Part shown: piece after piece, positions 8,271 through 36,900 of the stretch
Layout of the letters: each line of letters begins with the position of its first letter
Position numbering within the stretch: position 1 is the stretch's first letter
DNA from: Paraspadella gotoi
Taxonomy: Eukaryota > Animalia > Chaetognatha
Assembly: GCA_051294375.1 (NCBI GenBank)
Contig: CM119269.1
Span: forward strand, 2,658,699 to 2,722,698
DNA: 64,000 bases
Direction: 5' to 3'
Made by a program: the position numbers and the translations under genes
Notes under the pieces: generated by a model
What the model was told of the DNA's origin: nothing
Seen by the model: only the letters and a program-made list of their open reading frames with translations
Database searches by the model: none

Positions 8271-8501
8271 ACTTCGCTTTCACTCGGGTAAAAAGGCGGA
8301 AATTGAATGCAAGAATTGCATTGTTTTCAGAAGCAAACGGTTGGATGGTCAGACATCAACGGTTTAAATCGGCAGTTGCAGACACAAGGCATAACACAAG
8401 TCATATTCATTCAGGGTCAGCTATACTGCTTATTAAATTATAAATTTATTAGATGATAAAAGACGTTTTAAATTGTTCAAACAACGATTTTATTAGTGTA
8501 A

Positions 8502-8546
8502 GACGGACATGTTTCGTCTTTAATTGTACAAGCCTTCATCGGCGTC
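8502..8546 (-). ncRNA. Minimal type I hammerhead ribozyme-like motif, minus-strand twin (one stem II mismatch)
   Basis: Reverse complement reads GACG-CCGATGA-A-GGCTT gtacaatta AAGAC-GAAA-CATG-TC-CGTC. Confidence 0.55.
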
Positions 8547-8678
8547 AAAGATGTTTGTGAAATTTCAAACAAAGTTTGTGCAAAGGAAAGGAGAGAGAGA
8601 GAGAGAAAGAGAGAGAGGGCAAAGTTTCCAACTCCTTTCCTTTGCACAAACTTTGTTTGAAATTTCACAAACATCTTT

Positions 8679-8723
8679 GACGCCGATGAAGGCTTGTACA
8701 ATTAAAGCCGAAACATGTCCGTC
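8679..8723 (+). ncRNA. Minimal type I hammerhead ribozyme-like motif (variant core CCGAUGA)
   Basis: GACG-CCGATGA-A-GGCTT gtacaatta AAGCC-GAAA-CATG-TC^CGTC: stem I GACG/CGTC, stem II GGCTT/AAGCC, palindromic stem III ACATGT, predicted GUC cleavage after 8719; AATAAA ~11 nt downstream. Confidence 0.65.
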
Positions 8724-8910
8724 TTACACTAATAAAATCGTTGTTTGAACAATTTAAAACGTCCTTTATCATCCAAACACAACGAAACGAAAGGAAATAA
8801 CGATGTCTAAATTTATTAGAATACGACCGGTACTAAAATTTATTTTGACTTTAGTATGGAGAGAAAATAAAATTTATTTTTGTTTTGGTTTTTTTTTTTT
8901 TAATTCACAT

Positions 8911-8952
8911 TACACTGAAGAAGACTCGAAAAAGAGTCGAAACATGTCCGTT
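8911..8952 (+). ncRNA. Minimal hammerhead ribozyme-like motif with canonical core
   Basis: CTGAAGA-A-GACTC gaaaaa GAGTC-GAAA-CATG-TC^: canonical CUGANGA/GAAA, perfect 5-bp stem II, same CATG stem III and a similar AATAAAA..GTTGTTTG tail; stem I pairing is weak. Confidence 0.6.
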
Positions 8953-9902
8953 TAACAATAAAACTTGTTGTTTGTAAACAAAAAAAATGTATTTCTTTCA
9001 CTTTCACTTTTCACCACACCACACCTCACCACAACTCAACACATCACACTTCATCACACCTCACCACACATTAGATCACATCGTAATTCCTATAACGAAA
9101 ATTCACATATGATCTTAAAACACAAACTTTGTTTTCTCTCTTAATTTTAAACGCAACGAATCAAAAGTCTTTACTCCTTGACTTTAGTCAGTCAACAAGT
9201 TATAAATTTTAATAAAATTAAAAATAAATCAAAAAGTAGATTCTCAATCCCCAATTTAGCCAAAAGAATGCTTGTTTACTTTTTTGGTTTTGTTTTTACT
9301 TCTTTTTTCTTCAGTTTATTCCCATCATGATAATTTAATTTTCTCCATAAAAAGAAATCTAATAGCAAAAAAAGTTAACCTCTCGAGGCCAACAAGGGGC
9401 AAAGCGTTTAGGGCATTCGAAAATCGGGCATCTAGAGATTCGGCGAGGGCAATTTGATTATGGATGTAGTCCTTTCTTCGAAGGGCGCCCGCGCCCGAGG
9501 ATAAAAATGTCTGACGACTACAACGACGACGACAACGAAAACTACGTCGACCTCCGTTTACCCTCGAAGGGACTTCAGCGCCTCCCCTCCCCCCTGAACG
9601 AGCTCAACCTTTTAAGCCTTATCTTTCTCCGTCGGGGCTTCTCACATCCCACCCCCCAAATCCCTTAGCCCCCCCACCCTCTTTTTTCTTCACGCTTGAG
9701 TCGATCTCGAGGCCAGACAAATGTAGCTTTCTTATTCGCGCGGTCACTCATTTCTGTTTATTCTCTTTCATCCTTTCTCTTTGTTCATGCTTATCTTATT
9801 CCCTTTGCTATTTTTTCCCCTTTTTATCATATTTATTTATTTCTTATCGATAATCGGTTTATTTACTTTAAGTTAGGCTTAATAAGTAACTTATCAATAT
9901 TA

Positions 9903-10509: not shown

Positions 10510-11200
10510 GCAGCAATAAAGTAGATTTTAAGCTAATAAGTCCCTTAAATTTGTAAATCGGTGTGCTGGAATTTTAAGATTGAATTAATTAAGCTGGATA
10601 TTGATATTATTAAATTTGTAATATCGTAATTAAGAAATTCAAATTAAGCTTAAGATTAATGCGAGTATGCGGCTTGATCTTAGAAGGATTGATTTAAGCT
10701 TAGATTGTTAGCTGTTGCATTAAGATTGATTAAGCTTATTTGTAGATGCGGCTGATTTTTAAGATTGATTAAGCTTTGATTGATTTAAGCTGATAAGATT
10801 TGATTAAGCTTGATTTTAGGATGCGCTTGGTTTTAAGATTGATTAAAGCTTGAGATTATTAAGGCTTGATTAAGATTGATTTAAAGCTTGATTTGTGAGA
10901 TGCGGCTTGTTTTAAGATTGATTTAAGCTTGATGATAAGCTTGATTTTAAGACTTGATTAGCTTGATTTGTAGATGCGGCTTGATTTTAAGATGATTAAG
11001 CTTGATTGATTAAGCTTGATTAGATTATTAAGCTTGATTTGTAGATTTGCGGCTTGATTTTAAGATTGAATTAAGCTGATTGATTAGCTGATTAAGATGA
11101 TTAAGCTTGATTTTGGGGATGCGGCTTGATTTAAGATTGATTAAGCTTTGATTGATTAAAGCTTGATTAAAATTGATTAACTTGATTTTGTAAGATGCGG
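10510..11200. repeat. Minisatellite, ~75-bp unit built from TTGATTAAGC subrepeats, at least 8 copies
   Basis: (TGTA)GATGCGGCTTGATTTTAAG recurs near 10666, 10745, 10820, 10899, 10973, 11045, 11118 and 11194; copies degrade towards the N-gap. Confidence 0.9.
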
Positions 11201-14200
11201 GCTCTGTTTTTAAGAGACGGGTTAAAACATAGGTCGGATTGCTGACTCGCGTTACTTTGGTTTTCTGACTGTCACCCGAGTTATTGGAGCATGTTATATG
11301 CTACTATGTGACGTAACGATTTGAATCTTACTATACGTCAGTTCCAGCTTCAACATTCCGCATTTTTTTTCCTCAGGAATTTCATTTGCTTCGGCCAGGT
11401 AATCGAGTCTGGCTACCAGAAATTCGTTCGCGAGGTTAAAAAAAAACGTCGACCTCTCGAACGAATTCATTGAATTCAAACTCGTTCGTGGATTCGACTC
11501 ATACAAGCAACGTAACCACACGAGATTAAGATCAAGGGTGTGGTTTTATTGCAATAAGCTGTTATTCTTTCATGATTAATTGTTTTGAAAGCTGATTTCT
11601 TGTAATACAGATGAAGACAATAAAATTTTAGTTAACACAAAGACAAAAAGGCGAACAGTTGTTTTTTTTTTTTTTTTTTTTTTAATTGCAATAGCTGTTA
11701 TTCTTTCATGAATTTAATTGTTTGAAAGCTGATTTTCTTGTAATACAGATGAAGACACATAAAAATTTTAGTTAACACAAACACAAAAGGCACAGAACAG
11801 TTTTTTTTTTTTGTTTTTTTTTACATATTGAGTGTACCAATTTCAAAGGAAACTATGCTTTTGCACCCCGAGCATCGTTTCATCGATTCAACCTTTTCCC
11901 TTCAGGTGACTTACACCAACGGCAAACCCGCCCGTCGACGAGAGGGATCCAAGTCGAGTTGGCGTCGGAAGGCGACACCGACGACTTCAACGTCACCGTC
12001 GATGGAGAGACGGCCGTCGTCGGCGTCAACCTTCGCGGCCAATTTCCTCGTCGGCGGTCACAACGTAAATGTACCGGACTCACGGCCAAAATCAGGTCGT
12101 TTTCCACTGGACGCCGATCGCGATGCGAGATTTAAAACGTGCACCACATTGTGGGCGGACCGTTTGCTGCTGCCGTCGGGCACATTCTTCCTTCGGGCTT
12201 GGAGATTCTCTGTCGGGCGATTCGCTCAAGCTGAAGCCTGTTGAGCTGAAGTGTGGCGAGAGAGCTTCGGTTTCGATCGAGTATAGCTCGCAGAATTCGG
12301 CGAAGGACGCAGAGGAGAAGCAGCGACTTTCTAATTCTTGCGCGAAACGGAATTCGTCGTCACGGACGGTGACGTTGAGAAAAGAGGGCGTGGTCGCCTT
12401 CGACGTCGATCCCAATTGGTCGCCGAAGTCGGCGTCGTCGTCTACGTCTTCAACGGCGTCGAGATCGTCTCAGATCATCTGCTTTCGATCTGGCGCCCTG
12501 TTTTCGAGAATGTCGTCTCTCTCTCTTTCATTCCGGCGATCGAACGGCGCCCGGCGCTGAGACGGAGTTGACGGTGACCCCAGCGGCGCCGTCCCTTGCG
12601 GACTCAGCGGGCGTCGATAAGAGCGTGGAGCTTGTTGGAGGCGGTGGAGAGGTGACGGTGGCGAAGTGTTGGAAAGGTATCCCGCGAAGAACGAGATGAA
12701 GAAACTCCGACTGTCGCGAGGCGATGGAGGACTTTTCGTGACGGATCTTCGGACGGTCGGGGATGTCTATGGTTGAGCTTTGTGAGATGGGGGTAAGGCT
12801 TTGTGAGATGGGTGTAAGGTCTTGTAGATGGGTAAGTCTTTGAAACGAAATTTGATAAGAGGGAATGAACGTTGATTAAGTTTCGATTTTTTTTTTGGTT
12901 CTTTAACATACCTAGAAATATTTACTTTTAATTTTTTGATATAAACTATTTAAATCAATGTACTAAGTACTGTGGCGGAAAATCAGTTGGTTGCGCTATT
13001 TAAGGCTATTTTCTAGCGCGTTTTTAAGTCATTCATAACATTAACATCCCATCCGTTCTTACAAGAATGTGGCGCGGTCGGAATCGAGGGGATGATGCAC
13101 AAAGAATGCGATATCGCCTCAGCTCGCTTTCGCCCGATGTCGGTTGACGAAGCGGCGGTCAGCGCGCCCGCTACGCGCTCCAATTTCCCGAGACTTGGCT
13201 GTTGAAACTGGTCAACGTACGGGGAAGAGCGCCGTCGTCGCCGCCAGAGTTCCCGACACGATCACCGAGTGGCGTCGCGTCGGCGCCGTCTGCCTCTCCG
13301 AGCGCGCCGGCTGGGCTTTGCCAAGGAGATCGGCTCACGGCGTCGCAGGATTTCTTCTTCGAGTTCACTTTCCACGAGGCAGTGAGAGAGAGTCGCTCTC
13401 CGCTCAAGGTGACATCCGTTGGAATCGATGATGACCGGCGATATATCAATGATTAGTTACAACTGCCCACTATCATGTGCCTTATTGTATAACCTATTAT
13501 GTTCTAAAGCAACTTATTTATGTATCAATTCAATCAATCAATCTCATTGGAGCAAATTTTTAAATTTTGAAAAAATGCAATCGTTTGTTAAAGAAAGAAT
13601 TATAGAATTAACTAATTCCCAAACTTCCACAGGTCCAAACCTTCAACTACCTCTCCGCCTGCTTGCCCGTTTCTCTCCGACTCGACGTAGCCAACGGCGT
13701 CGAAGTCCTCAGCGGCGCCAACGGCTTTGAATTCTGCGTCTGCGGGGCGTCGTTACCCAGGGAGTTCCGCTTGAAGGCGACGGAGGCGGCGACGTTGAAG
13801 TGGGCGTTGAGGCGACGACGACGAGGGACGGCGGAGTCTTGCGACGGACGGGAGGTGGCGAAGGGCGAGTCTTTGCCGATCGAGTGGAAAGGAAGTTGAG
13901 CGTTCGTGCGTCGAAGGATTCAACAACGTGAGCATCTGGTCTTCAATGAGACGAGTGTTGAAGTTGATTTGTCTCATTTCTGTTATTGTTGTTGTTGAAG
14001 ATGTTGACTGAGTCGTAAAGCGCTGTTTCTGCTAGAATTCCATTCTCGTCGGTCGAGTTCTGACGTTGTACTACTTGTACTACTTGTCTGACTTGTAATA
14101 TAGTTTCTAAAAACACAAATTATAAATGATGTTTAACACAATTAATAAGGAAACAGGTGACCGTCAGTGAGTCAAGAGTGAATACTGAAAGTTAATTACG

Positions 14201-16926
14201 AAGCTAATTTTATTATTAAATTATTCTTAAATAATTTAAATTATATTTATCACTGAAAATCAAAAAATATTAAAACTACCCTCTCCTTCAGGAACTCGTC
14301 AACTCAAAATTCATTGCCTCAATGACAACAAAAGGGAAGACTTTCCTTCGACCTGACCCGCGACGAAGCTCACGGCGCCATGATGTTCCCGGTTCATCCG
14401 CGGCGCCATCCAGGTCATTGGCGACGCCATGGGCCCCGCCCTCGGCAACCTCGACGGCCTGGTCCGCATGCCCTGCGGTTGCGGCGAGCAGACCATATCA
14501 CCATGTGCCCCAACGTCTACGTGCTCAAGTATCTGGCGGCGACGGGAGCAAGCCGAGCCGGAGATGCGGGCCAAGGCTCGGAGTTTCGCCTTGGAGGCTT
14601 ACAACAGGAAGTGACGAATTACCGGCGGCGCGACGGCTGTTGCTCGGCCTTTCCGACCGACGCCAGCGGCAGCGCCTGGTTGACAGGCTTCGTCTTAAAA
14701 TGCTTTGGTCAGAGCGAGGGGCGTGGTCTCCGACTTGAGCGACGTCGAGAACGTTCTCGGCCAAGCGTCAGTGGTTGAGCGAGAGGCAGAACGAGAACGG
14801 GAGTTATCAAAGCGTCGGTAGGGTAAGTTAAGGGTGGGTGAAGTTGTGGAAGAAAGAAGAAATCGATTGTAATGTAAAGTAACCGTTTATTTATCATTTT
14901 GATTTTTTAGAAAATAAATCGATTTTGTTAGAATCCAAGCAAGAATCGCTCTCTTTTTTTAACCACAAACTCGCAAACAAACTTTCTCCACGCCCCGGTC
15001 ATCCACACCGAGATGAAAGGCGAATTGGGATCCTCGGAATTCGGTCGCACAGCCTTCATCCTGACGGAGTGTTGGAGAGTGCGTACTCCGCCGCTTCGGA
15101 TTCCATCAACTCCGCCGTCCGCTTCCTACTCGCTCACAACCACACCGCCTTGCCCACCTTCGCCTTCGTGCTCGAGGCCTACGCCTTGGCGCTCAGCGGC
15201 GATCGAATCAGCGCCGCGCAGATGGCGCCGTGGGTGGCGGAGCGGCCCGGCGTCGTGTCGCCGACGCCGCTGGGAATTTATTGGCGCAAACGACGACGAC
15301 GACAGAAGCGAACACGGACCGGATGCTGCTGCGACGGGACGACGAAGAGTCGACGAAATCAAGGCGTCGACGTTGAGACGACGAGTTACGCCCTCTTGTG
15401 GACGCTGACGGAAAAAAGAGCGCGACTTGGGCGTCGTTTGGGCGTGGTCAAGTGGCTGACGGCGCAGCAGAAAGCCGGCGGAGGATTCGAATCCACGCAG
15501 GACACGATTTTGGGTGAGGGCGGTGTCGGTGTGAGGAGGTGGGATTGAAAAGAGGTGGGCGGAATTGAAGCAGCATTGTGTCTATATTTCTTTATTTCCT
15601 CCAGTCTGCCGTTATATGAAATTGGTAACAACCAATATAAATTATATATATTCGAAACCATTTGCCGTATAACCTCAATAAAATTCCAAATAACTCATCA
15701 GCCTTCGTCTTAATTTATTTTTTCCTCGTCACACCGCTTCCTTTCTCTCCCGCTTCAGGCCTCCAAGCTTGCAGAAAGCTGCGACCGTCTTGTACCGAAA
15801 CAACAAACAAAGACTCCGTCTCTTTGAGATGGACGAGCGAGGACGGAGAGAGGCGAAGATTCTCCTCTCGTTGATCAGTCGATTTCCAAAGAGAAACGGT
15901 CAGTTTCAGTGGGGGGGGGTTACTTTGGGATGGCATCCCTTTTCGGGACAGGATCAATTTCATTATGAGGTCGATTTTAAGGGATGGTTTTAAGCGGGAC
16001 TCTTTAAAAAAAGATGAGTAAAATTTGACGAATTTGTTAAGCGGAATTCACGACATTTCAGACTCGTGCTACAACGCGCTGCGTTCCCGTCGTGGGCGAG
16101 ACACTAAATTAATCGGTCTCTATGACGACGAAGGCGCCGTCTAATGCGTGCGTTCTCGCACAGGCGATACTTAGATACAACACAAGAGGTCTGGAGCACC
16201 GAGGTACATTTATGCGGCGATGTGTTAAAATGGATAGATTTACTTAAAGAATGAGTTTACGAACGAATCAAACTACTTGATAAATAATGAATGAAGGAGT
16301 ACAAATGAACGATGAATGGATCAATAAGTAATCGAATAAATTAGTGAATGATTTAACTACCCAACACCCGCGACTCAGATGAAAGAAGTGAAAGTGAACG
16401 CGACGACGACAAAGATCGAGCGGACGCGGAAGCAATCGCGTCGGACGAATGGAAGTCTGTCTCTTCTACGGAGATGAAGATCCTTCGGGGTGTACATCGC
16501 CGAGGCCAAACTTGCCGACCGGGTGGAAGCGAACAAGGTTCGGCTTGGACCACGATGGTGAGGGAAGAACGAGATTTTGTTGTCGATTCATTCATCTATT
16601 CGTAATTGATTTGTTTAGTCATTTTTTTTTTTAGTTAGCCGGTAAAGTTAACAATCAATTATTCGTTTATTAAATTCGTTCATTCATTGACTCGTCATGT
16701 ATGTATAATCTATTTCAACCATTCATTTATTTCCAGGCTCTCCCATCATGATGCAGGAGAACCGTCGCCAAGACTCTCCATCGCCGTCTACTTCGACGAA
16801 CTTCGGCCCAACGAAACCCACATGGCTCACTTTTCCGCCCACAAAGAATTCCAGGTAAGGCTACCACAAATTAAAAGATCTAGAAAAATCTGAAAGTTTA
16901 TTTCTCACGCCTCTTCTCTCTCTCTC

Positions 16927-21322: not shown

Positions 21323-24300
21323 AGAGAGAGGAGAGAGGGAGGGGCGTGAGAAAATAAACTTTCAGATTTTTTCTAGAATCTTTAATTTGTGCTTGCCTTC
21401 CTGAAAAAAATCTTTGTGGGCGGAAAAAGTGAGGCATGTGGTTTCGTTGGGCCGAAGTTCGTCGAAGTAGACGGCGATGGCAGAGTCTTGGCGACGGTTC
21501 TCCTGCATCATGATGGGAGAGCCTGGAAATAAATGAATGGTTGAATAGATTAATACATACATGACCGAGTCAATGAATGAACGAATTTAATAAACGAATA
21601 ATTGATTGTTAACTTTACCGGCTAACTAAAAAAAAAAATGACTAAACAAATCAATTACCGAATAGATGAATGAATCGACAACAAAATCTCGTTCTTCCCT
21701 CACCCATCGTGGTCCAAGCCGAACCCTTGTTCGCCTTCCACCCGGTCGGCAAGTTGGCCTCGGCGATGTACATCCCCGAAGGATCTTCATCTCCGTAGAA
21801 GAGACAGACTTCCATTCGTCCGACGCGATTTGCTTCCGCGTCCGACTCGATCTTTGTCGTCGTCGCGTTCACTTTCACTTCTTTCATCTGAGTCCGGGGG
21901 TTGGGTAGTTAAATCATTCACTAATTTATTCGATTACTTATTGATCCATTCATCGTTCATTCGTGTACTCCTTCATTCATTATTTATCAAGTAGTTTGAT
22001 TCGTTCGTAAACTCATTCTTTAAGTAAATTCTATCCATTTTAACACATCGCCGCATAAATGTACCTCCGGTGCTCCAGACCTCTTGGTGTTGTATCTAAG
22101 TATCGCCTGTGCGAGAACGCACGCATTAGACGGCGCCTTCGTCGTCATAGAGACCGATAATTTTAGTGTCTCGCCCACGACGGGAACCGCAGCGCGTTGT
22201 AGCACGAGTCTGAAATGTCGTGAATTCCGCTTAACAAATTCGTCAAATTTTACTCATCTTTTTTAAAGAGTCCCGCTTAAAAACCATCCCTTAAAATCGA
22301 CCTCATAATGGAAATTGATCCTGTCCCGAAAAAGGGATGCCATCCCCAAAGTAACCCCCCCCCCACTGAAACTGACCTGTTCTCTTTGGAAATCGACTGA
22401 TCAACGAGAGGAGAATCTTCGCCTCTCTCGTCCTCGCTCGTCCATCTCAAAGAGACGGAGTCTTTGTTGTTGTTTCGGTACAAGACGGTCGCAGCTTCTG
22501 CCAAAGCTTGGAGGCCTGAAAGCGGGAGAGAAAGGAAGCGGTGTGACGAGGAAAAAATAAATTAAGACGAAGGCTGATGAGTTATTTGGAATTTTATTGA
22601 AGGTTGATACGGCAAATGGTTCGAATATATATATATTTATATTGGTTGTACCAATTTCATATAACGGCAGACTGGAGAATATAAAGAATATAGACACAAT
22701 GCTGCTTCAATTCCGCCCACCATCTTTTCAATCCCCCACCTCCTCACCCGACACCGCCCTCACCCAAAATCGTGTCCTGCGTGGATTCGAATCCTCCGCC
22801 GGCTTTCTGCTGCGCCGTCAGCCACTTGACCACGCCCACAACGACGCCCAAGTCGCGCTCTTTTTCCGTCAGCGTCCACAAGAGGGCGTAACTCGTCGTC
22901 TCAACGTCGACGCCTTGATTTCGTCGATCTCTTCGTCGTCCTCGTCGCAGCAGCACCGGTCCGTCGTCGCTTCTGTCGTCGTCGTCGTTGCGCCAATAAA
23001 TTCCCGCGGCGTCGGCGACACGACGCCGGGCCCGCTCCGCCACCCACGGCGCCATCTGCGCGGCGCTGATTCGATCGCCGCTGAGCGCCAAGGCGTAGCC
23101 TCCGAGCACGAGGGCGAAGGTGGGCAAGGCGGTGTGGTTGTGAGCGAGTAGGAAGCGGACGGCGGAGTTGATGGAATCCGAGCGGCGGAGTACGCCACTC
23201 TCCAACACTCCCGTCAGGATGAAGGCTGTGCGACCGAATTCCGAGGATCCCAATTCGCCTTTCATCTCGGTGTGGATGACCTGGGGCGTCGGGAAAGTTT
23301 GTTTGCGAGTTTTGTGGTTAAAAAAAAGAGAGCGATTCTTGCTTGGATTCTAACAAAATCGATTTATTTTCTAAAAAAATCAAAATGATAAATAAACCGG
23401 TTACTTTACATTACATCGATTTCTTCTTTCTTCCACAACTTCACCCACCCTTAACTTACCCTACCGACGCTTTGATAACTCCCGTTCTCGTTCTGCCTCT
23501 CGCTCAACCACTTGACGCCTTGGCCGAGAACGTTCTCGACGTCGCTCAAGTCGGAGACCACGCCCCTCGCCTGACCAAAGCATTTTAAGACGAAGCCTGT
23601 CAACCAGGCGCTGCCGCTGGCGTCGGTCGGAAAGGCCGAGAACGAGCCGTCGCGCCGCCGGTAATTCGTCACTTCCCTGTTGTACCCGTCCAAGGCGAAA
23701 CTCCGAGCCTTGGCCCGCATCTCCGGCTCGGCTTGCTCCGTCGCCGCCAGATACTTGAGCACGTAGACGTTGGGGCACATGGTGATCATGGTCTGCTCGC
23801 CGCAACCGCAGGGCATGCGGACCAGGCCGTCGAGGTTGCCGAGGGCGGGGCCCATGGCGTCGCCAATGACCTGGATGGCGCCGCGGATGGAACCGGGAAC
23901 CATCATGGCGCCGTGAGCTTCGTCGCGGGTCAGGTCGAAGGAAAAGTCTTCCCTTTTGTTGTCATTGAGGCAAATGAATTTTGAGTTGACGAGTTCCTGA
24001 AGGAGAGGGTAGTTTTAATATTTTTAGATTTTCAGTGATAAATATAATTTAAATTATTTAAGAATAATTTAATAATTAAAATTAGCTCGTAATTAACCTT
24101 TTCAGTATTCACTCTTGACTCACTGACGGTCACCTGTTTCCCTTATTAATTGTGTTAAACATCATTTTATATATCTGTGTTTTTAGAAACTATATTACAA
24201 GTCAGACAAGTAGTACAAGTAGTACAACGTCAGAACTCGACCGACGAGAATGGAATTCTAGCAGAAACAGCGCTTTACGACTCAGTCAACATCTTCAACA

Positions 24301-27300
24301 ACAACAATAACAGAAATGAGACAAATCAACTTCAACACTCGTCTCATTGAAGACCCAGATGCTCACTTGTTCGAATCCTTCGACGACGACGCTCAACTTC
24401 CTTTCCACTCGATCGGCAAAGACTCGCCCCTTCGCCACCTCCCGTCCGTCGCAGACTCCGCCGTCCCTCGTCGTCGTCGCCTCAACGCCCACTTCAACGT
24501 CGCCCGCCTCCGTCGCCTTCAAGCGGAACTCCCTGGTAACGACGCCGCCGCAGACGCAGAATTCAAAGCCGTTGGCGCCGCTGAGGACTTCGACGCCGTT
24601 GGCTACGTCGAGTCGGAGAGAAACGGGCAAGCAGGCGGAGAGGTAGTTGAAGGTTTGGACCTGTGGAAGTTTGGGAATTAGTTAATTCTATAATTCTTTC
24701 TTTAACAAACGATTGCATTTTTTCAAAATTTAAAAATTTGCTCCAATGAGATTGGATTGATTGATTGATACATAAATAAGTTCTTTAGAACATAATAGGT
24801 TATACAATAAGGCACATGATAGTGGGCAGTTGTAACTAATCATTGATATATCGCCGGTCATCATCGATTCCAACGGATGTCACCTTGAGCGGAAGCGACT
24901 CTCCTCTCACTGCCTCGTAGGGAAAGTGAACTCGAACGAAGAAATCCTGCGACGCCGTGAGCCCGATCTCCTTGGCAAAGCCCAAGCCGGCGCGCTCGGA
25001 GAGGCAGACGGCGCCGACGCGCCACTCGGTGATCGTGTCGGGAACTCTGGCGGCGACGACGGCGCTCTTCCCCGTCACGTTGACCAGTTTCCACAGCCAA
25101 GTCTCGGGGAAATTGGAGCGCGTAGCGGGCGCGCTGACCGCCGCTTCGTCAACCGACATCTCGGCGAAAGCGAGCTGAGCGATATCGTCCATTTTGTGCA
25201 TCATCCGCCCTCGATTCCGACCGCGCCACATTCTTGTAAAGACGGATGGGATGTTAATGTTATGAATGAACTTAAAACGCGCTAGAAAATAGCCTTAAAT
25301 AGCGCAACCAACTGATTTTCCGCCACAGTACTTAGTACATTGATTTAAATAGTTTATATCAAAAAAATTAAAAGTAAATATTTCTAGGTATGTTAAAGAA
25401 CCAAAAAAAATCGAAACTTAATCAACGTTCATTCCCCTCTTATCAAATTTCGTTTCAAAGACCTTACCCCATCTCACAAAGACCTTACCCCATCTCACAA
25501 AGACCTTACCCCATCTCACAAAGCTCAACCATGACATCCCCGACCGTCCGAAGATCCGTCACGAAAAAGTCCTCCATCGCCTCGCGACAGTCGGAGTTCT
25601 TCATCTCGTTCTTCGCGGGATACCTTTCCAACACCTTCGCCACCGTCACCCTCTCCACCGCCTCCAACAGCTCCACGCTCTTATCGACGCCGCTGAGTCC
25701 GCAGAGGGACGGCGCCGCTGGGGTCACCGTCAACTCCGTCTCAGCGCCGGGCGCCGTTCGATCGCCGGAATTGAAAGAGAGAGAGACGACATTCTCGAAA
25801 CAGGGCGCCAGATCGAGGAGCAGATGATCTGAGACGATCTCGACGCCGTTGAAGACGTAGACGACGACGCCGACTTTCGGCGACCAATTGGGATCGACGT
25901 CGAAGGCGACCACGCCCTCTTTTCTCAACGTCACCGTCCCGTGACGACGAATTCCGTTTCGCGCAAGAATTAAGAAAGTCGCTTGCTTCTCCTCTGCGTC
26001 CTTCGCCGAATCTTGTGAGCTATACTCGATCGAAACCGAAGCTCTCTCGCCACACTTCAGCTCAACAGGCTTCAGCTTGAGCGAATCGCCCGACAGAGAT
26101 CTCCAAGCCCGAAGGAAGAATGTGCCCGACGGCAGCAGCAAACGGTCCGCCCACAAGTGGTGCACGTTTTTAAATCTCGCCATCGCGATCGGCGTCAGTG
26201 GAAAACGACCTGATTTGGCCGTGAGTCCGGTACATTTCAAGGTGATGGACGCCGACGAGGAAATTGGCCGCGAGAGGTTGACGCCGACGACGCCGTCTCC
26301 ATCGACGGTGACGTTGAAGTCGTCGGTGTCGCCTTCCGACGCCAACTCGACTTGGATCCTCTCGTCGACGGCGGGTTTGCCGTTGGTGTAAGTCACCTGA
26401 AGGGAAAAGGTTGAATCGATGAAACGATGGACTCGGGGTGCAAAAGCATAGTTCCTTTGGAAATTGGTACACTCAATATGTAAAAAAAAACAAAACAAAA
26501 AAAAAACAACTGTTCTGCCTTTTGTCTTTGTGTTAACTAAAATTTTTATTGTCTTCATCTGTATTACAAGAAAATCAGCAAAACCTTTTACCTTCAAGCT
26601 TTCAAACAATTAAATCATGAAAGAATAACAGCTATTGCAATAAAACCACACCTTGATCTTAATCTCGTTGGTTACGTTTGCCTTGTATGAGTCGAATCCA
26701 CGAACGAGTTTGAATTCAATGAATTCGTTCGAGAGGTCGACGTTTTTTTTAACCTCGCGACGAATTTCGGTGCCAGACTCGATTATCTGGCCGAACAACA
26801 TGAAATTCCTGAGGAGAAAAAAAATGGCGAATGTTGAAGGCGGAACTGACGTATAGTAAGTCAAATCGTAGGTCACATAGTACGTCATATAACATCGCTC
26901 ACAATAACTCGGGGTGACAGTCAGAAACAAAGTAACCGAGTCACACTCCGACCTGTTTTAACCCGTCTCTTAAAAACAAGCCGCATCTACAACTTTCCCT
27001 TGTCATCTGCAATTCCAAATCCTTTCCACACGATCCATCCCACGGCACCTCGTTCCGCCGTATTCAGCTCCGCCTCCAAGCAACCCTTCTCCAAAGGCCC
27101 TCAAACTCTTGGCAGACTTCCGGATTCGGTTGCACCAAATCCGGCTCATCATTTCCCCCAGCACATCCGACGTTCCCGGCCGTGATGGTACCAGCCGCCG
27201 CGACACGCCTTTACGGCGGCCCGCCCGGCCACCGGGCCGCCGTGGGTGTATGTGCCGCACAGTCGGGCAATAGGATCGGGACTCGAAGGGTCCGAGTCGC

Positions 27301-27348
27301 CGACGGTAGATGGTGGACTCGAATTTGGGGAGGAGGTACTCGTCGACC

Positions 27349-27398
<50 letters not shown>

Positions 27399-29214
27399 AG
27401 AGAAAAGAGACATATACATAAGGCGTAGTGAAAGTTACATACAAAAATTCTAAAAGTCAATTATGAACAACATACCATCAGTGAACATTAATTTGTTAAA
27501 AAAAAATTAATTTATGTTTTTTAATTTTTCGCAGTAGGCTATATTATATATATAAGTATGACTATCCTTATAAAATCGAAAAATTTCAAAATAGGCTTTT
27601 CTTAATTTTGATTCAATTTGAATTCCTCTCAAAAGTTGATAAAAGAAAATATAAATCATTTTTACAAATTCTTTTCATTAAGTAGGTTAAAAATTAAAAA
27701 AACTATATTTAATATATAAAAAGTTAATTTTCGCTTCAAATATAGCTTTTTTAATTTTTGACCCACTTAATAAAGGAATTTTTCAAAAGAAGTTTTTTCT
27801 TTTTATCAACTTTTTATGACGAATCTAAATCTGGATTTTAAAAAAATGTTTTGCAAACATTTTTTAAAGTACTAGTATAAATACTGCGTAAATTGTAAAA
27901 TTTACTATTAAATTTTTTTATTACATAAATGTTCATAAGTATAATGTTGTTCGTTCCTCACTTTTATAATTTTAATTAAAAGTTAAATTTAGGAATTTTA
28001 CTACGCCTTAATATACAGATACAGATACAGAAAAAGAAACAAAGAAGTACGAAACGAAGTAAAAAAGCAACAACGGAAGCAAAACATTTTCACCTTAGTA
28101 AGGTCCTTACCTTGAACGATAGCGTTTCCTTTGAACCTTTAGAGTTGACGCACTCGATCGTGTAACTTCCCAGCATCGGCTCCAACTCGAGATGAAATTT
28201 CAAATCCTTGAGTCCCCCTTCCGGTTTTATGTTCAACCATTGACGCAACACGAACCTCCGTGGATTTTTTACGACGCATTTCTAAGACACACATTTCATT
28301 ATCAATTTCCAGTCGAAGATGAATTTCATAAATTTTGAAATTTTTTAAATAAAGAAATGAACAACTGGTAAAATAAAGGAATGAATAAAAGAATAAGAGA
28401 ATGTAGATATGAATGATTGAATGAATGAATAAATGAAATGAATGAATGAAAAAATGAAAGAATGAAAGAATGAAATTCATTTTTTTGTGCCGTGTCATCG
28501 GGTCCATTCAAAAGAGAAAAAAAAATAGGTATTCCTCTACGGCCCTTCTATTCTCACGAACGATATGAGATTCAGGTTTTAAAATCGTTCTTACGTTAAT
28601 TACGCTGTCATCAGGCTTCAGCTCGTCCGTCAACTTCAAAAGTCTGATGTTGACCGTTTGTCCCGGTTTGAAGACCGACTTGTCCGTCTCTATGAACATC
28701 AAGGCGCCTCCCTCGGCGCCTTTTCTCTTTTCCCCAGCTTCGGCCAAGGAGGTGGAGTTGAGAAGTTCCAAGTCGTTCGTCGCTCAAAATAAAAACCAAA
28801 ATCTAATTTGCATTTTACACTCTATTTCTCTTGAATTATTTTTGAGATTTTAGGACGTATTAATTTCGTAGTCATTCAGACAAAATAGATGCAAATAAAC
28901 CTTTAAGTAAAACTACTCTTTTAGCATATTAGTTTTTGTAGTTTCTGTAGTGTAGCTTACAAAACAAAAACCAATCTTGGCAGGGACTCACTCGAATTCA
29001 TGGCGAAGACATGCAAGTAAGGAAACTCATTTTGCTTGTCAGTCGGAGAAAATTTTACGAGATAGTTCTTTACTTCGTTCCCAACGGTCGGTTCCAGGGT
29101 TAGATCTCGGGACCCGATCACCGACGAATCACCCAACTTGGCGCGATGTGCCATTCGGGATTCTGTGAAAAGCACGGAAATTTATGATGAGGGGCTTGAG
29201 GAAAGTAATTATAA

Positions 29215-33949: not shown

Positions 33950-36900
33950 TTAGATCCCAAGCAGCCCACGATATTCGTAAGGTGCATAAGTGAGTGTCTG
34001 TTTGAAAAATTGGTCGTAGTTAAAAAGAGTAAACAAGTTTATCAGGTATTATAAAAAATATATAAGCGAGCTTCGTCATTGTGCGCTACAAATTACAATA
34101 CATTCTTTTCATACGTACATATTGAAATAGAGCTATTGTCTTGACAATTATTTTTAGTCCTTGTTTCTTTTTGGTATTACCTCCAATTACATCTCCCCGA
34201 TTGATATTCATTAAGTCGATTTTATAATCTTGAATATCTTTGCTCACTGTTTCATCGTTAATAGTGCTTGCTTTTTGTTTTCTTTGGAGAAACCCAGTAA
34301 AAACAACGTTACCCGGTGAGACCTTTTATAGTGGTTTAAAAAAGCAGTTTTTTTCAGGAAATCTGATTTATTTCTTTATTTATAATTATTTTTCCAATTG
34401 GGAGATTCACCTTTATGGCTACAAAATATATTAATATATCTCCTTCAGTAAATTGGAAACATTCCCTGACTTTAACGAACTCAAATTGGACACAAAGATG
34501 GATTTTTTTAATTCTAGCGTTAATAATATTTAATAATACGGCGCCAACATCCGCAGCAACTGATGGAGAGACATTGGTTCCCTCGGGCCAGTAACAACTG
34601 CAGAATTCCAAGGGAATTCCCGCCGTTTGGCAGGTGCGGTTTTCGGGTATCGAAGTCATGAGGGAAAATCTTCGAGCTAAAATGAAGACGCAGCAATAAA
34701 TAACTATTGAGCTAAAAGGGAAACACGATGCGGGGATAAAACCTTTCCTACCTTCGGAGCCAAGTCCAGGCACAATGGAATCACCTTTCCATCGATCCGT
34801 TCGCGTTGCAAGATGTAACAAATGTCTTAAGGTCTCGTTAATGTCGTAGGTACTAACAAGACGTTTAGTATTAGCGACGGCGGCAGCGTACAAACTCGGA
34901 TATCGTTGGCGAAACCAATCAGGAAAGACGATGAACAGCATGGGCATACTGTCTTCATGCCTTCCGACGCTCGTAGCAAAGAGGTCGGACTGTCGAAATC
35001 CGTGATCAGCCCACAAGAAGAGAATTGAATTGTCGAGATGACCACGATCCTTGTGGGAAAATAATAAGCAATCAACTTTCACCAAATCTTCAACAAATGT
35101 GAATTGTGCAATCAACCTTCATCTTCATCAGCAACTGTAGCGAAGGTTTCTCTGCTTGTTTCAAACCGTTCAAACGTGAGTGGGTCCACTCCACAGCCAT
35201 AGTGTAGGTGAAAAGAGAGTCATTGAAAGCGGCATGCGCATCTAGCGTTTTCAAGAACCAATCATAAATAAGGTCTCCCCACGATTTTCCTCCCACGCAT
35301 TTGTTCTTGTAAGGATCTGCAAAAATATTGTTGATAATTTCAATATTTTAATAATGAAAAAAAAAATTTAGGATAGAACGACTGCAACAGAATGTGCTAA
35401 ATGATGAAAGAAAAAAATTTTTTTATTCATTATGATATATTATTACAAAAAATCGTTTTATTAATCTTTTGATTGACTGATATCAATAAAAAGAAACCTC
35501 CAGCGGCCAGAGCCATGGGTTTAAAGGCGTGGTCGATTTTTCTATAGTCTGCTGGCCATGCGCAACATGTTGAAGCCCAATCGTCCCCAAATGCGGTCCA
35601 ATACCCATTCGAAGCAAACGAGGTCCAGACAAGGTCTTCCGCTTTCGGATAATTTCTAGGATACTTACCACCAGAAAATAACGCAGCCATATTAGGGTTA
35701 GACTTCAACCAACCTATCAAATTTTCCATGATATTATAATATATACCAAAAAGTAAATAAAGATGATATCGGAGGGAGGATTTTTCTCTCACCTTGTTGT
35801 AACCGTAAAACTCCAAGGCTCCCAGTTGAGTGGTCAAATAATTTCTCAATTTAGGCAAATACCTAATAGTGTTAAGTCTCGAAGTTGAATCCATTGCAAG
35901 AATGTGGACATTGAATCGACATGGTAAGTCAGTTGGCGACGATTTGGCGCAAAGGTTCGCCCACTCTCCTTCCGGCTCGCCACCTTGGGATCTCGATACG
36001 GCAGATTTACGAGAAGAGCATCTTCTTCGCGCTTTTCGCACCAGATCTTTGCGTAGCTGGCATTAATGGTGGTCGAGTCATTGGCGTCGAACCGTACTGG
36101 CCTCATTATCCCCTTTTTCCTTGTTGGAAGTAACGAGTAGAAGCAGTGGCCCACGGAGGATTCAGTCAGAGGACGTTTTAAGAAAACCGTATTTTTCTGA
36201 GTCATGGAAGAATGATGAAATGGAGATTAATTTGATGAAGATTATTTAATCTTTTATTACTTATTAGCCCCTTCACCTTCTCAACATAAGATTATTTTAG
36301 AAAGAAATTATACTTTGGAAAAAGGCAGTTGTGGCGAATCCTAAATTCGCCTCCCGTATAGCTTGGTGAAACTCAGCTTTGAAAGCTAAGTACTCGTTCA
36401 CCAACCATGAGTTCCGTGTTCAATCCCCTCACGGTCACGCTGGTTAAAGTGTGATGGTGTTGACACGCCAGTGACATTGGGTGGTCACTGGTCAGTGCAG
36501 GTCTAAAGCCCTGAGCGCCAGCTGTTGAGAGATGCTAAACACCCCTGGCATCACACATGTCCCCCCGTTGCCATACAGTCTCATTTTAATATGATTCTGC
36601 CCAATTCTGTAATTTATTAAGGTTGCTATGGGCCCATGGCTACCAAACGGTCACTTTGATTTCGAAGATCCTTTCATTCGCTTTGCATTTCAGCTCCTCA
36701 TCCTTCTGATCGAGGATGTAGAGGATCGAGGCGTTGAAAGGGTCGATATCGGGGACGACGCAACCGCTCGTCGAGATCAGCGGCTTTGCCTTTGACAGTC
36801 AAACAAAAAGGGAATTTTGAATGAACAACACCGACTTTTCGTAGCCAAATCGCTCGCACATCTAACTCTCCCTCCCAACGAAGAATTTTAAAAAAATCAC

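What the first reader, a model, noticed from the sequence alone, without database searches (positions are those of the whole stretch)
8452..8773. Palindromic element carrying a hammerhead-ribozyme-like motif in both polarities
Seen: 142-bp inverted arms, each with GACG-CCGATGA-A-stem II-GAAA-CATG-TC-CGTC pointing outward and followed by AATAAA. Known: Penelope-like retroelements carry minimal type I hammerheads with a palindromic stem III in their pLTRs, which often occur inverted, and such minimal hammerheads are thought to cleave as dimers. Inference: this is a non-autonomous PLE/retrozyme-like foldback unit. A read-through transcript from either strand would contain one ribozyme masked by its own antisense in a long hairpin, a possible self-regulating or dsRNA-producing module. 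The core has C in place of the usual U4 in both arms.
Basis: partly seen in the sequence, partly recalled or inferred. Interest (0 to 1): 0.8.

Follow-up and report, generated by a model that had tools for sequence, protein, structure and literature searches.

The report
Penelope mirror stub, altered hammerhead core
This mirror-image stretch is likely a young, single insertion of two back-to-back ends of a Penelope-type jumping gene, a layout already known; the one odd point is that most related sequence in this animal's DNA carries C instead of the usual U in the core of the predicted self-cutting RNA.

Summary
The palindrome is real: 142-bp arms (8452-8593, 8632-8773, 2 mismatches), each with a minimal type I hammerhead motif. 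Public contigs of the repeat family end at that border. Inverted end + one-sided tail + target-site duplication is the published footprint of endonuclease-positive Penelope-like elements (PLEs). In unrelated contigs, 31 of 62 such hammerheads have a head-to-head mirror copy. So this is likely a dead-on-arrival PLE stub, not a designed self-regulating module. Antisense masking is predicted, but as a by-product. The left motif has a broken stem II pair. A second stub with a canonical core lies next door (8856-9177). The unusual point: C4 makes up 75-84% of summed contig depth at that position in four runs, while the other core and stem positions barely vary. U4C is known from a viroid (slower, still viable); I found no PLE report. 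This scan has already noted both the layout (603 findings, 49+ genomes) and U4C PLE families on other DNA. No RT/GIY-YIG gene was tied to this family; cutting is untested.

The parts
8441..8453 (+). Left target-site duplication TAAATTTATTAGA (last 2 nt also fit the arm, so 11-13 bp)
   Evidence: the word occurs only here and at 8808 in the window
8452..8593 (-). Left arm: inverted copy of the PLE end, without the tail
8502..8546 (-). Left minimal hammerhead, C4 core, stem II pair 2 broken by T8517; predicted cut after 8506
8594..8631 (.). Non-palindromic centre: (GA)n tract 8591-8617 plus a 14-nt filler that shares 8 nt with the arm
8632..8773 (+). Right arm; family homology starts at 8632-8636
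8679..8723 (+). Right minimal type I hammerhead, C4 core at 8684, extra A 8690, palindromic helix III ACATGT; predicted cut after 8719
8774..8807 (+). 34-nt AC-rich tail, present on the right only, shared with many family contigs
   Evidence: depth falls from 12,618 at 8801-8809 to 537 at 8810-8818 and 0 beyond, run X1
8808..8820 (+). Right target-site duplication
8856..9177 (+). Second, independent PLE-like stub of a related family: short inverted arm 8859-8881 (20 of 23 nt match 9118-9140), 37-nt tail 9141-9177, 11-bp TSD 8845-8855/9178-9188
8915..8948 (+). Third hammerhead, canonical CTGAAGA core, stem II intact, own stem I broken

Best explanation
The 354-bp unit 8454-8807 is likely one retrotransposition event of an endonuclease-positive Penelope-like element that left two short copies of the element's hammerhead-bearing terminal repeat joined head to head, a 34-nt tail on one side and an 11-13-bp target-site duplication. 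Shown in the sequence and contigs: arms, tail, TSD, multi-copy family ending at the TSD, intact cut site in both arms. Inferred from the in vitro PAc system (PMC11167929): a helper PLE protein nicks both strands of an AT-rich site 11-13 nt apart; each 3' end primes reverse transcription at one of two internal start sites that bound the tail; both cDNAs run across the uncut hammerhead, stop about 90 nt beyond it at or in a (CT)n tract, and are joined through a short filler; repair fills the TSD. The stub carries no PLE protein sequence and is likely inert. Any read-through RNA would zip into a 140-bp hairpin that hides both motifs. In the source element the C4-core hammerhead likely still folds and cuts slowly, as a dimer or with help from the PLE protein.
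For: TSD of 13 bp; 25 of 5000 random AT-rich zone pairs reach 13, and its right border coincides with the end of family depth in 4 of 4 runs. Tail 34 nt against the published 30-40 bp one-sided tail, and TSDs of 8-10 bp in Adineta Pen2a/Pen2/Pen3a. Summed contig depth over the hammerhead about 23,000 versus about 60 for neighbouring unique DNA in X1. In metagenome contigs, 31 of 62 same-type hammerheads have a head-to-head mirror, 1 of 62 tail-to-tail, control 11 of 252; median spacing 229 nt versus about 177 here. 6 of 28 testable mirrors show a TSD of 9 bp or more with a one-sided offset of about 28-36 nt, control 0 of 70. L030 has an RT fragment and L040 the C-terminal end of an RT/GIY-YIG-type protein upstream of such hammerheads. 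PAc nicks and extends both strands, its tail lies between two RT starts, and HHR cleavage is not needed for insertion.
Against: No PLE ORF was tied to this family: none in the window, no genome held, and read laying gives no contig sequence. Only 4 of 115 outside loci hit PLE-type proteins. No listed contig spans the whole unit or bridges a junction by 31 nt on both sides. One search lists no strand-changing joint, so other foldback copies in this genome rest on one joint with a 24-nt side (8548 to 8676, run X2). The order of the priming and joining steps is inferred, and Arkhipova et al. 2013 favoured self-priming on an antisense template.
Confidence: 0.85

Rival explanations
1. A non-autonomous foldback unit that is transcribed and mobilised whole.
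For: A small set of near-identical copies exists (X1 contig of depth 445, X2 contig of depth 1010, 1 difference over 134-138 nt). The centre 8594-8624 was skipped as repeat by the tool, so its copy number is unknown.
Against: No depth at 8625-8629 in any run. Another head-to-head joint has a different centre (weak). No tandem units. A full hairpin would hide the motifs. Tail on one side only fits building at insertion.
Confidence: 0.08
2. Same PLE origin, but the mirror arose by fold-back self-priming (one cDNA or an antisense template), not by priming from both nicked strands.
For: Proposed for Adineta Penelopes from palindromes at the inverted junction (PMC3846280). The arms are 99% alike and share one inner end point.
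Against: The junction here is a 38-nt non-palindromic spacer. PAc extends both strands. The arms differ at 8461/8764, where both states are common in the family (T in 3788 of 9524 depth in X1), which would fit two templates but may be allelic. This rival competes only with the mechanism part of the best explanation.
Confidence: 0.25
3. The hairpin was kept by the host as a regulator or dsRNA/small-RNA source.
For: Predicted hairpin of -268.6 kcal/mol, z -32. Adineta Penelopes give small RNAs.
Against: Any recent inverted insertion folds like this. The arms are as young as the family's newest copies. No host gene was found around it (nearest TEP-like ORF pieces start past 11.7 kb).
Confidence: 0.04
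4. Assembly or amplification chimera.
For: No contig or raw read spans the unit; the assembly has many gaps.
Against: A chimera would not give a TSD, a one-sided tail and unique DNA on both sides. Contig depth at the left-arm-specific T8517 is at about the level of unique DNA in 4 of 4 runs from 2 studies (92, about 200, 6.7, 8.3).
Confidence: 0.02

Closest known systems
Insertion units of EN+ Penelope-like elements with inverted pLTR, tail and TSD (Adineta Pen2a/Pen2/Pen3a, PMC3846280, passages and Discussion read; Craig et al. 2021 Fig. 2 legend, PMC8557442, passages, section 11 and supplement searches)
   Same: Head-to-head inverted end, 30-40-bp tail on one side, TSD of about 10 bp, AT-rich target.
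   Different: No ORF between the arms (354 bp); junction has a (GA)n tract and filler rather than an overlap or palindrome; clade not assigned.
Minimal type I hammerheads of metazoan PLEs (Cervera and De la Pena 2014, PMC4209133, parts 1-2 of 4 read)
   Same: 4-bp stem I, extra nucleotide between 9 and 10.1, G10.1-C11.1, small palindromic helix III; that paper already reports dual motifs about 100-700 bp apart on opposite strands.
   Different: Core has C4; the core variant reported there is U3-A8. Stem II is 5 bp.
PAc Poseidon element of Anolis (Frangieh et al. 2024, PMC11167929, passages and second part of main text read)
   Same: Tail bounded by an AC-rich start region, AT-rich target with ATT, hammerhead near the element end, cut site left intact in the inserted DNA.
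   Different: PAc is autonomous and canonical; the mirror structure is not explained in the parts read. The AUG in this core opens only 20 codons.
Natural U4C hammerhead of a viroid (as summarised in Perreault et al. 2011, PMC3088659, passages and section 8 read; the primary paper not seen)
   Same: Same core change; lowers activity in vitro yet allows infectivity.
   Different: One variant of an extended viroid ribozyme, not the majority state of a genomic retrotransposon family.
Metazoan non-LTR retrozymes (PMC7229834, passages; bioRxiv 10.64898/2026.07.22.740005, part 1 of 5)
   Same: Non-coding, type I hammerhead, PLE-related.
   Different: Defined by tandem direct units with a hammerhead in each; here inverted, single, with TSD and tail.

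Membership tests
EN+ Penelope-like element insertion | Inverted 5'-truncated copy adjacent at the 5' end (head to head) | tested here: met
EN+ Penelope-like element insertion | 30-40-bp tail at one end only | tested here: met
   34 nt, 8774-8807
EN+ Penelope-like element insertion | Short TSD at an AT-rich site | tested here: met
   11-13 bp
EN+ Penelope-like element insertion | Dispersed multi-copy family | tested here: met
   C4 depth 49-223 times unique-flank depth in 3 DNA runs; summed depth is not a copy number
EN+ Penelope-like element insertion | Family has a member with RT plus GIY-YIG ORF | not testable with these tools
   No genome held; none in window; link seen only for other families (L030, L040)
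Minimal type I hammerhead of PLEs | Stems I and II, extra nt before 10.1, G10.1-C11.1, palindromic 15.1-16.1 | tested here: met
   Right arm complete; left arm has one stem II mismatch
Minimal type I hammerhead of PLEs | Core CUGANGA | tested here: not met
   C at position 4 in both arms and in 75-84% of family depth; file as a core variant
Minimal type I hammerhead of PLEs | Self-cleavage as a dimer | not testable with these tools
   Active-dimer fold of the right motif -20.6 versus best dimer -26.0 kcal/mol; left motif -6.2 versus -24.0; prediction only
Rfam hammerhead families | Match to an Rfam model | tested here: not met
   No hammerhead hit at E<=10
Non-LTR retrozyme | Tandem direct units, a hammerhead in each | tested here: not met
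Non-LTR retrozyme | Abundant circular RNA | not testable with these tools
   Only contigs were available

The most novel reading that the evidence does not exclude
A recently active Penelope lineage has moved most of its copies to a C4 hammerhead core while keeping the rest of the fold under selection, so these elements favour a deliberately slow (or purely structural, protein-bound) ribozyme that leaves enough uncut RNA for two-ended reverse transcription. U4 and C4 subfamilies in one genome would then be a natural pair for testing what PLE hammerheads are for.
Probability: 0.35. Interest if true: 0.55.

Novelty: new member of a known kind. Interest (0 to 1): 0.3.

Why it matters
As a locus it is ordinary: one more PLE footprint. 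Its use is as test material. The role of PLE hammerheads is open (called unclear in PMC8557442; not needed for insertion in vitro in PMC11167929). A family in which C4 dominates but stems and the other core positions stay fixed, beside U4 relatives, allows a direct comparison of cutting rate against spread. The clean TSD, tail and spacer also help to tell two-ended priming from fold-back as the source of PLE mirror ends.

Tried and rejected
Whole genome: none held. Rfam: only sub-threshold microRNA-hairpin matches, no hammerhead; rejected as hairpin artefacts. Expression: no RNA holder listed; run X9 is a guessed RNA run whose listed pieces are relatives with 7-12 differences; not used either way. 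No cover at 8819-8861 or, in X2, X5, X6, at 8275-8439, and no empty-site joint listed: uninformative. PLE ORF in the window: none by tblastn of 65 proteins or by profile. Pfam on 20 ORFs upstream of outside hammerheads: 1 of 20 hit (RT). Viral contigs: 5 pattern matches, none with both stems. Exact motif or a C4 hammerhead in supplements of PMC8557442: none seen in the passages shown (line breaks could hide matches); PMC4209133: 0 in 2 files, file 1 not searchable. Lunse et al. on PLE hammerhead dimers is not held and may list core variants. Cis dimer between the right motif and the third motif at 8915: one of the two active sites can be drawn (-16.2 versus best -19.6 kcal/mol), but the arm hairpin outcompetes it in read-through RNA; judged chance adjacency. 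CpG decay as source of the U4 copies: no G-to-A row at 8685 at 1% and window CpG o/e 1.26; rejected. Host taxon: TEP homologs only 31-55% identical; an animal, not placed further. Pair counts come from 36 motifs that I selected for intact stems, so they are not independent proof of covariation.

Full report
Observation. The inverted repeat is at 8449-8593/8632-8776 with a 38-nt spacer and mismatches at 8451, 8461 and 8517. The right arm holds a complete minimal type I hammerhead motif (8679-8723): stem I GACG/CGTC, core CCGATGA with C at position 4 (8684), an extra A, 5-bp stem II, GAAA-CATG-TC, predicted cut after 8719, AATAAA at 8731. The left arm mirrors it, but T8517 breaks a stem II pair and its lone fold no longer resembles a hammerhead. 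A descriptor finds only these motifs in the window against 0.05 per shuffle (60 shuffles). A model from 36 unrelated motifs scores them 33.8 and 24.2 bits and finds a third at 8915-8948 (36.9 bits); the only other match is at E 1.6. Rfam has no match. The window is animal DNA (TEP/CD109 and DUF229 genes); no genome is held.

TAAATTTATTAGA flanks the unit at 8441-8453 and 8808-8820 and occurs nowhere else in the window; 25 of 5000 random AT-rich zone pairs share 13 or more letters. Between the right arm and the right copy lie 34 nt with no mirror on the left. Contigs of public runs (9 runs listed; 5 laid over) show a repeat family: about 23,000 summed depth over the hammerhead against about 60 for neighbouring unique DNA in X1. 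Depth is high over the tail, falls at 8807-8810 and is zero from 8819 in 4 of 4 runs; it starts at 8632-8636 (8594-8624 was skipped as repeat). A second unit, 8856-9177, has the same plan: 11-bp TSD (59 of 5000 in the null), 23-nt inverted arm, 37-nt tail, canonical core.

Is it real? No contig spans the unit or formally bridges a junction. But a chimera would not yield a TSD and tail, and contigs with the left-arm-only T8517 are present at about unique-DNA depth in 4 of 4 runs from 2 studies.

How common is the layout? I kept 88 of 115 as hammerhead-like (3 of 4 stem II pairs, local GC under 45%) and dropped 27. Of the 62 with 300 nt upstream, 31 have a head-to-head mirror and 1 a tail-to-tail one; random centres 11 of 252; dropped loci 1 of 27. 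Of 34 mirrored loci, 6 had flanks too short; 6 of the other 28 show an exact TSD of 9 bp or more with a one-sided offset of about 28-36 nt, against 0 of 70 shifted controls. These loci are AT-rich and likely host-animal DNA (inference); some are duplicates (e.g. L044/L096) or kin, so the counts are not independent. Protein links are sparse: 4 of 115 loci hit 65 RT proteins found with the L030 ORF. L030 has an RT fragment just upstream. L040 has the C-terminal end of such a protein upstream of one arm's hammerhead; Pfam called GIY-YIG in 1 of 4 of those proteins scanned.

Literature. Craig et al. (PMC8557442, passages) describe an inverted 5'-truncated copy at the 5' end and a 30-40-bp tail often at one end only. 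Arkhipova et al. (PMC3846280) describe Pen2a with inverted pLTR, 31-bp tail and 9-bp TSD, call head-to-head the most frequent arrangement and suggest self-priming on an antisense template. Cervera and De la Pena (PMC4209133) define the minimal motif, its extra nucleotide, low dimer activity, and dual motifs about 100-700 bp apart on opposite strands. Frangieh et al. (PMC11167929) show that PAc nicks and extends both strands at AT-rich sites, starts RT at two internal sites bounding the tail, uses uncut RNA, and has a protein-assisted hammerhead that insertion does not need.

Mechanism. Shown: arms, tail, TSD, family ends, intact cut site in both arms. Inferred: staggered nicks 11-13 nt apart, priming from both ends at the two start sites, copying across the uncut hammerhead, a stop at or in a (CT)n tract, joining through a filler that shares 8 nt with the arm. 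Both arms share one inner end, where family homology also starts; this fits run-off at a fixed RNA end (a reading taken from earlier finding e1-10280228) or a stop at a microsatellite that belongs to the element; I could not separate these. Masking is predicted (stem II probability about 1e-20 in the whole unit, 0.998 in the right arm alone; hairpin z -32) but needs no selection. Against my reading: no ORF tied to this family; one search lists no strand-changing joint; the one other foldback joint has a 24-nt side.

The C4 core. At 8684, T holds 4775 of 19008 depth in X1, 8123 of 44902 in X2, 251 of 1043 in X5 and 137 of 840 in X9, so C is 75-84%, or 49-223 times unique-flank depth in the three DNA runs (not a copy number; the 80% cut-off favours close kin). 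In outside loci C4 is 6 of 88. Of 34 paired or catalytic positions other than 4 and 7, 1 varies at 1% or more (A8680G, which keeps a wobble pair), against 15 of 35 loop and flank positions (Fisher p 9e-5; alignment bias and shared ancestry inflate this). That points to a fold still under constraint. U4C is known from a viroid, lowering activity but allowing infectivity (PMC3088659). Searches for a PLE case (supplements 37, 38, 53, 56) found none; Lunse et al. was not available, one supplement file of PMC4209133 was not searchable, and bioRxiv supplements are closed, so prior report is not excluded.

Earlier findings of this scan. 603 findings in at least 49 genomes hold the words for Penelope hammerhead palindromes, and several describe U4C PLE families elsewhere. 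None matches this sequence or place. They are unchecked notes and are not counted as support.

Verdict. Real feature, known kind; reader partly right. Interest 0.3, carried by the family-wide C4 core.

Noticed in passing
window 8856-9177: Second PLE-like stub 35 bp from the first, with canonical CTGAAGA hammerhead core, short inverted arm, 37-nt tail and 11-bp TSD; suggests a local AT-rich hotspot.
   Followed up: yes
window 8985-9120: About 135-150-nt AC-rich insert inside the second stub; family contigs skip it (joints 8979-8984 to 9118-9133) while one unique-depth X1 contig bridges it.
   Followed up: partly
window 8461 versus 8764: The arms differ at a site where both C and T are common in the family; could mean two RNA templates, an allele or an assembly error.
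   Followed up: partly
window about 11700-15600 (+) and 22500-28700 (-): Two TEP/CD109-like thioester protein gene copies in opposite orientation.
   Followed up: partly
window 34357-36062 (-): DUF229 gene pieces.
   Followed up: no
window 10540-11000: Imperfect short direct repeats built on GATTGATTTAAGCTT.
   Followed up: no
L040:400-1500: Head-to-head pair whose centre is the broken C-terminal end of an RT/GIY-YIG-type ORF; a clear outside example tying this hammerhead type and layout to PLEs.
   Followed up: yes
L048, L092: Outside copies with C4 and intact stems; the mirror arm of L048 has a different core change, which looks like decay.
   Followed up: partly
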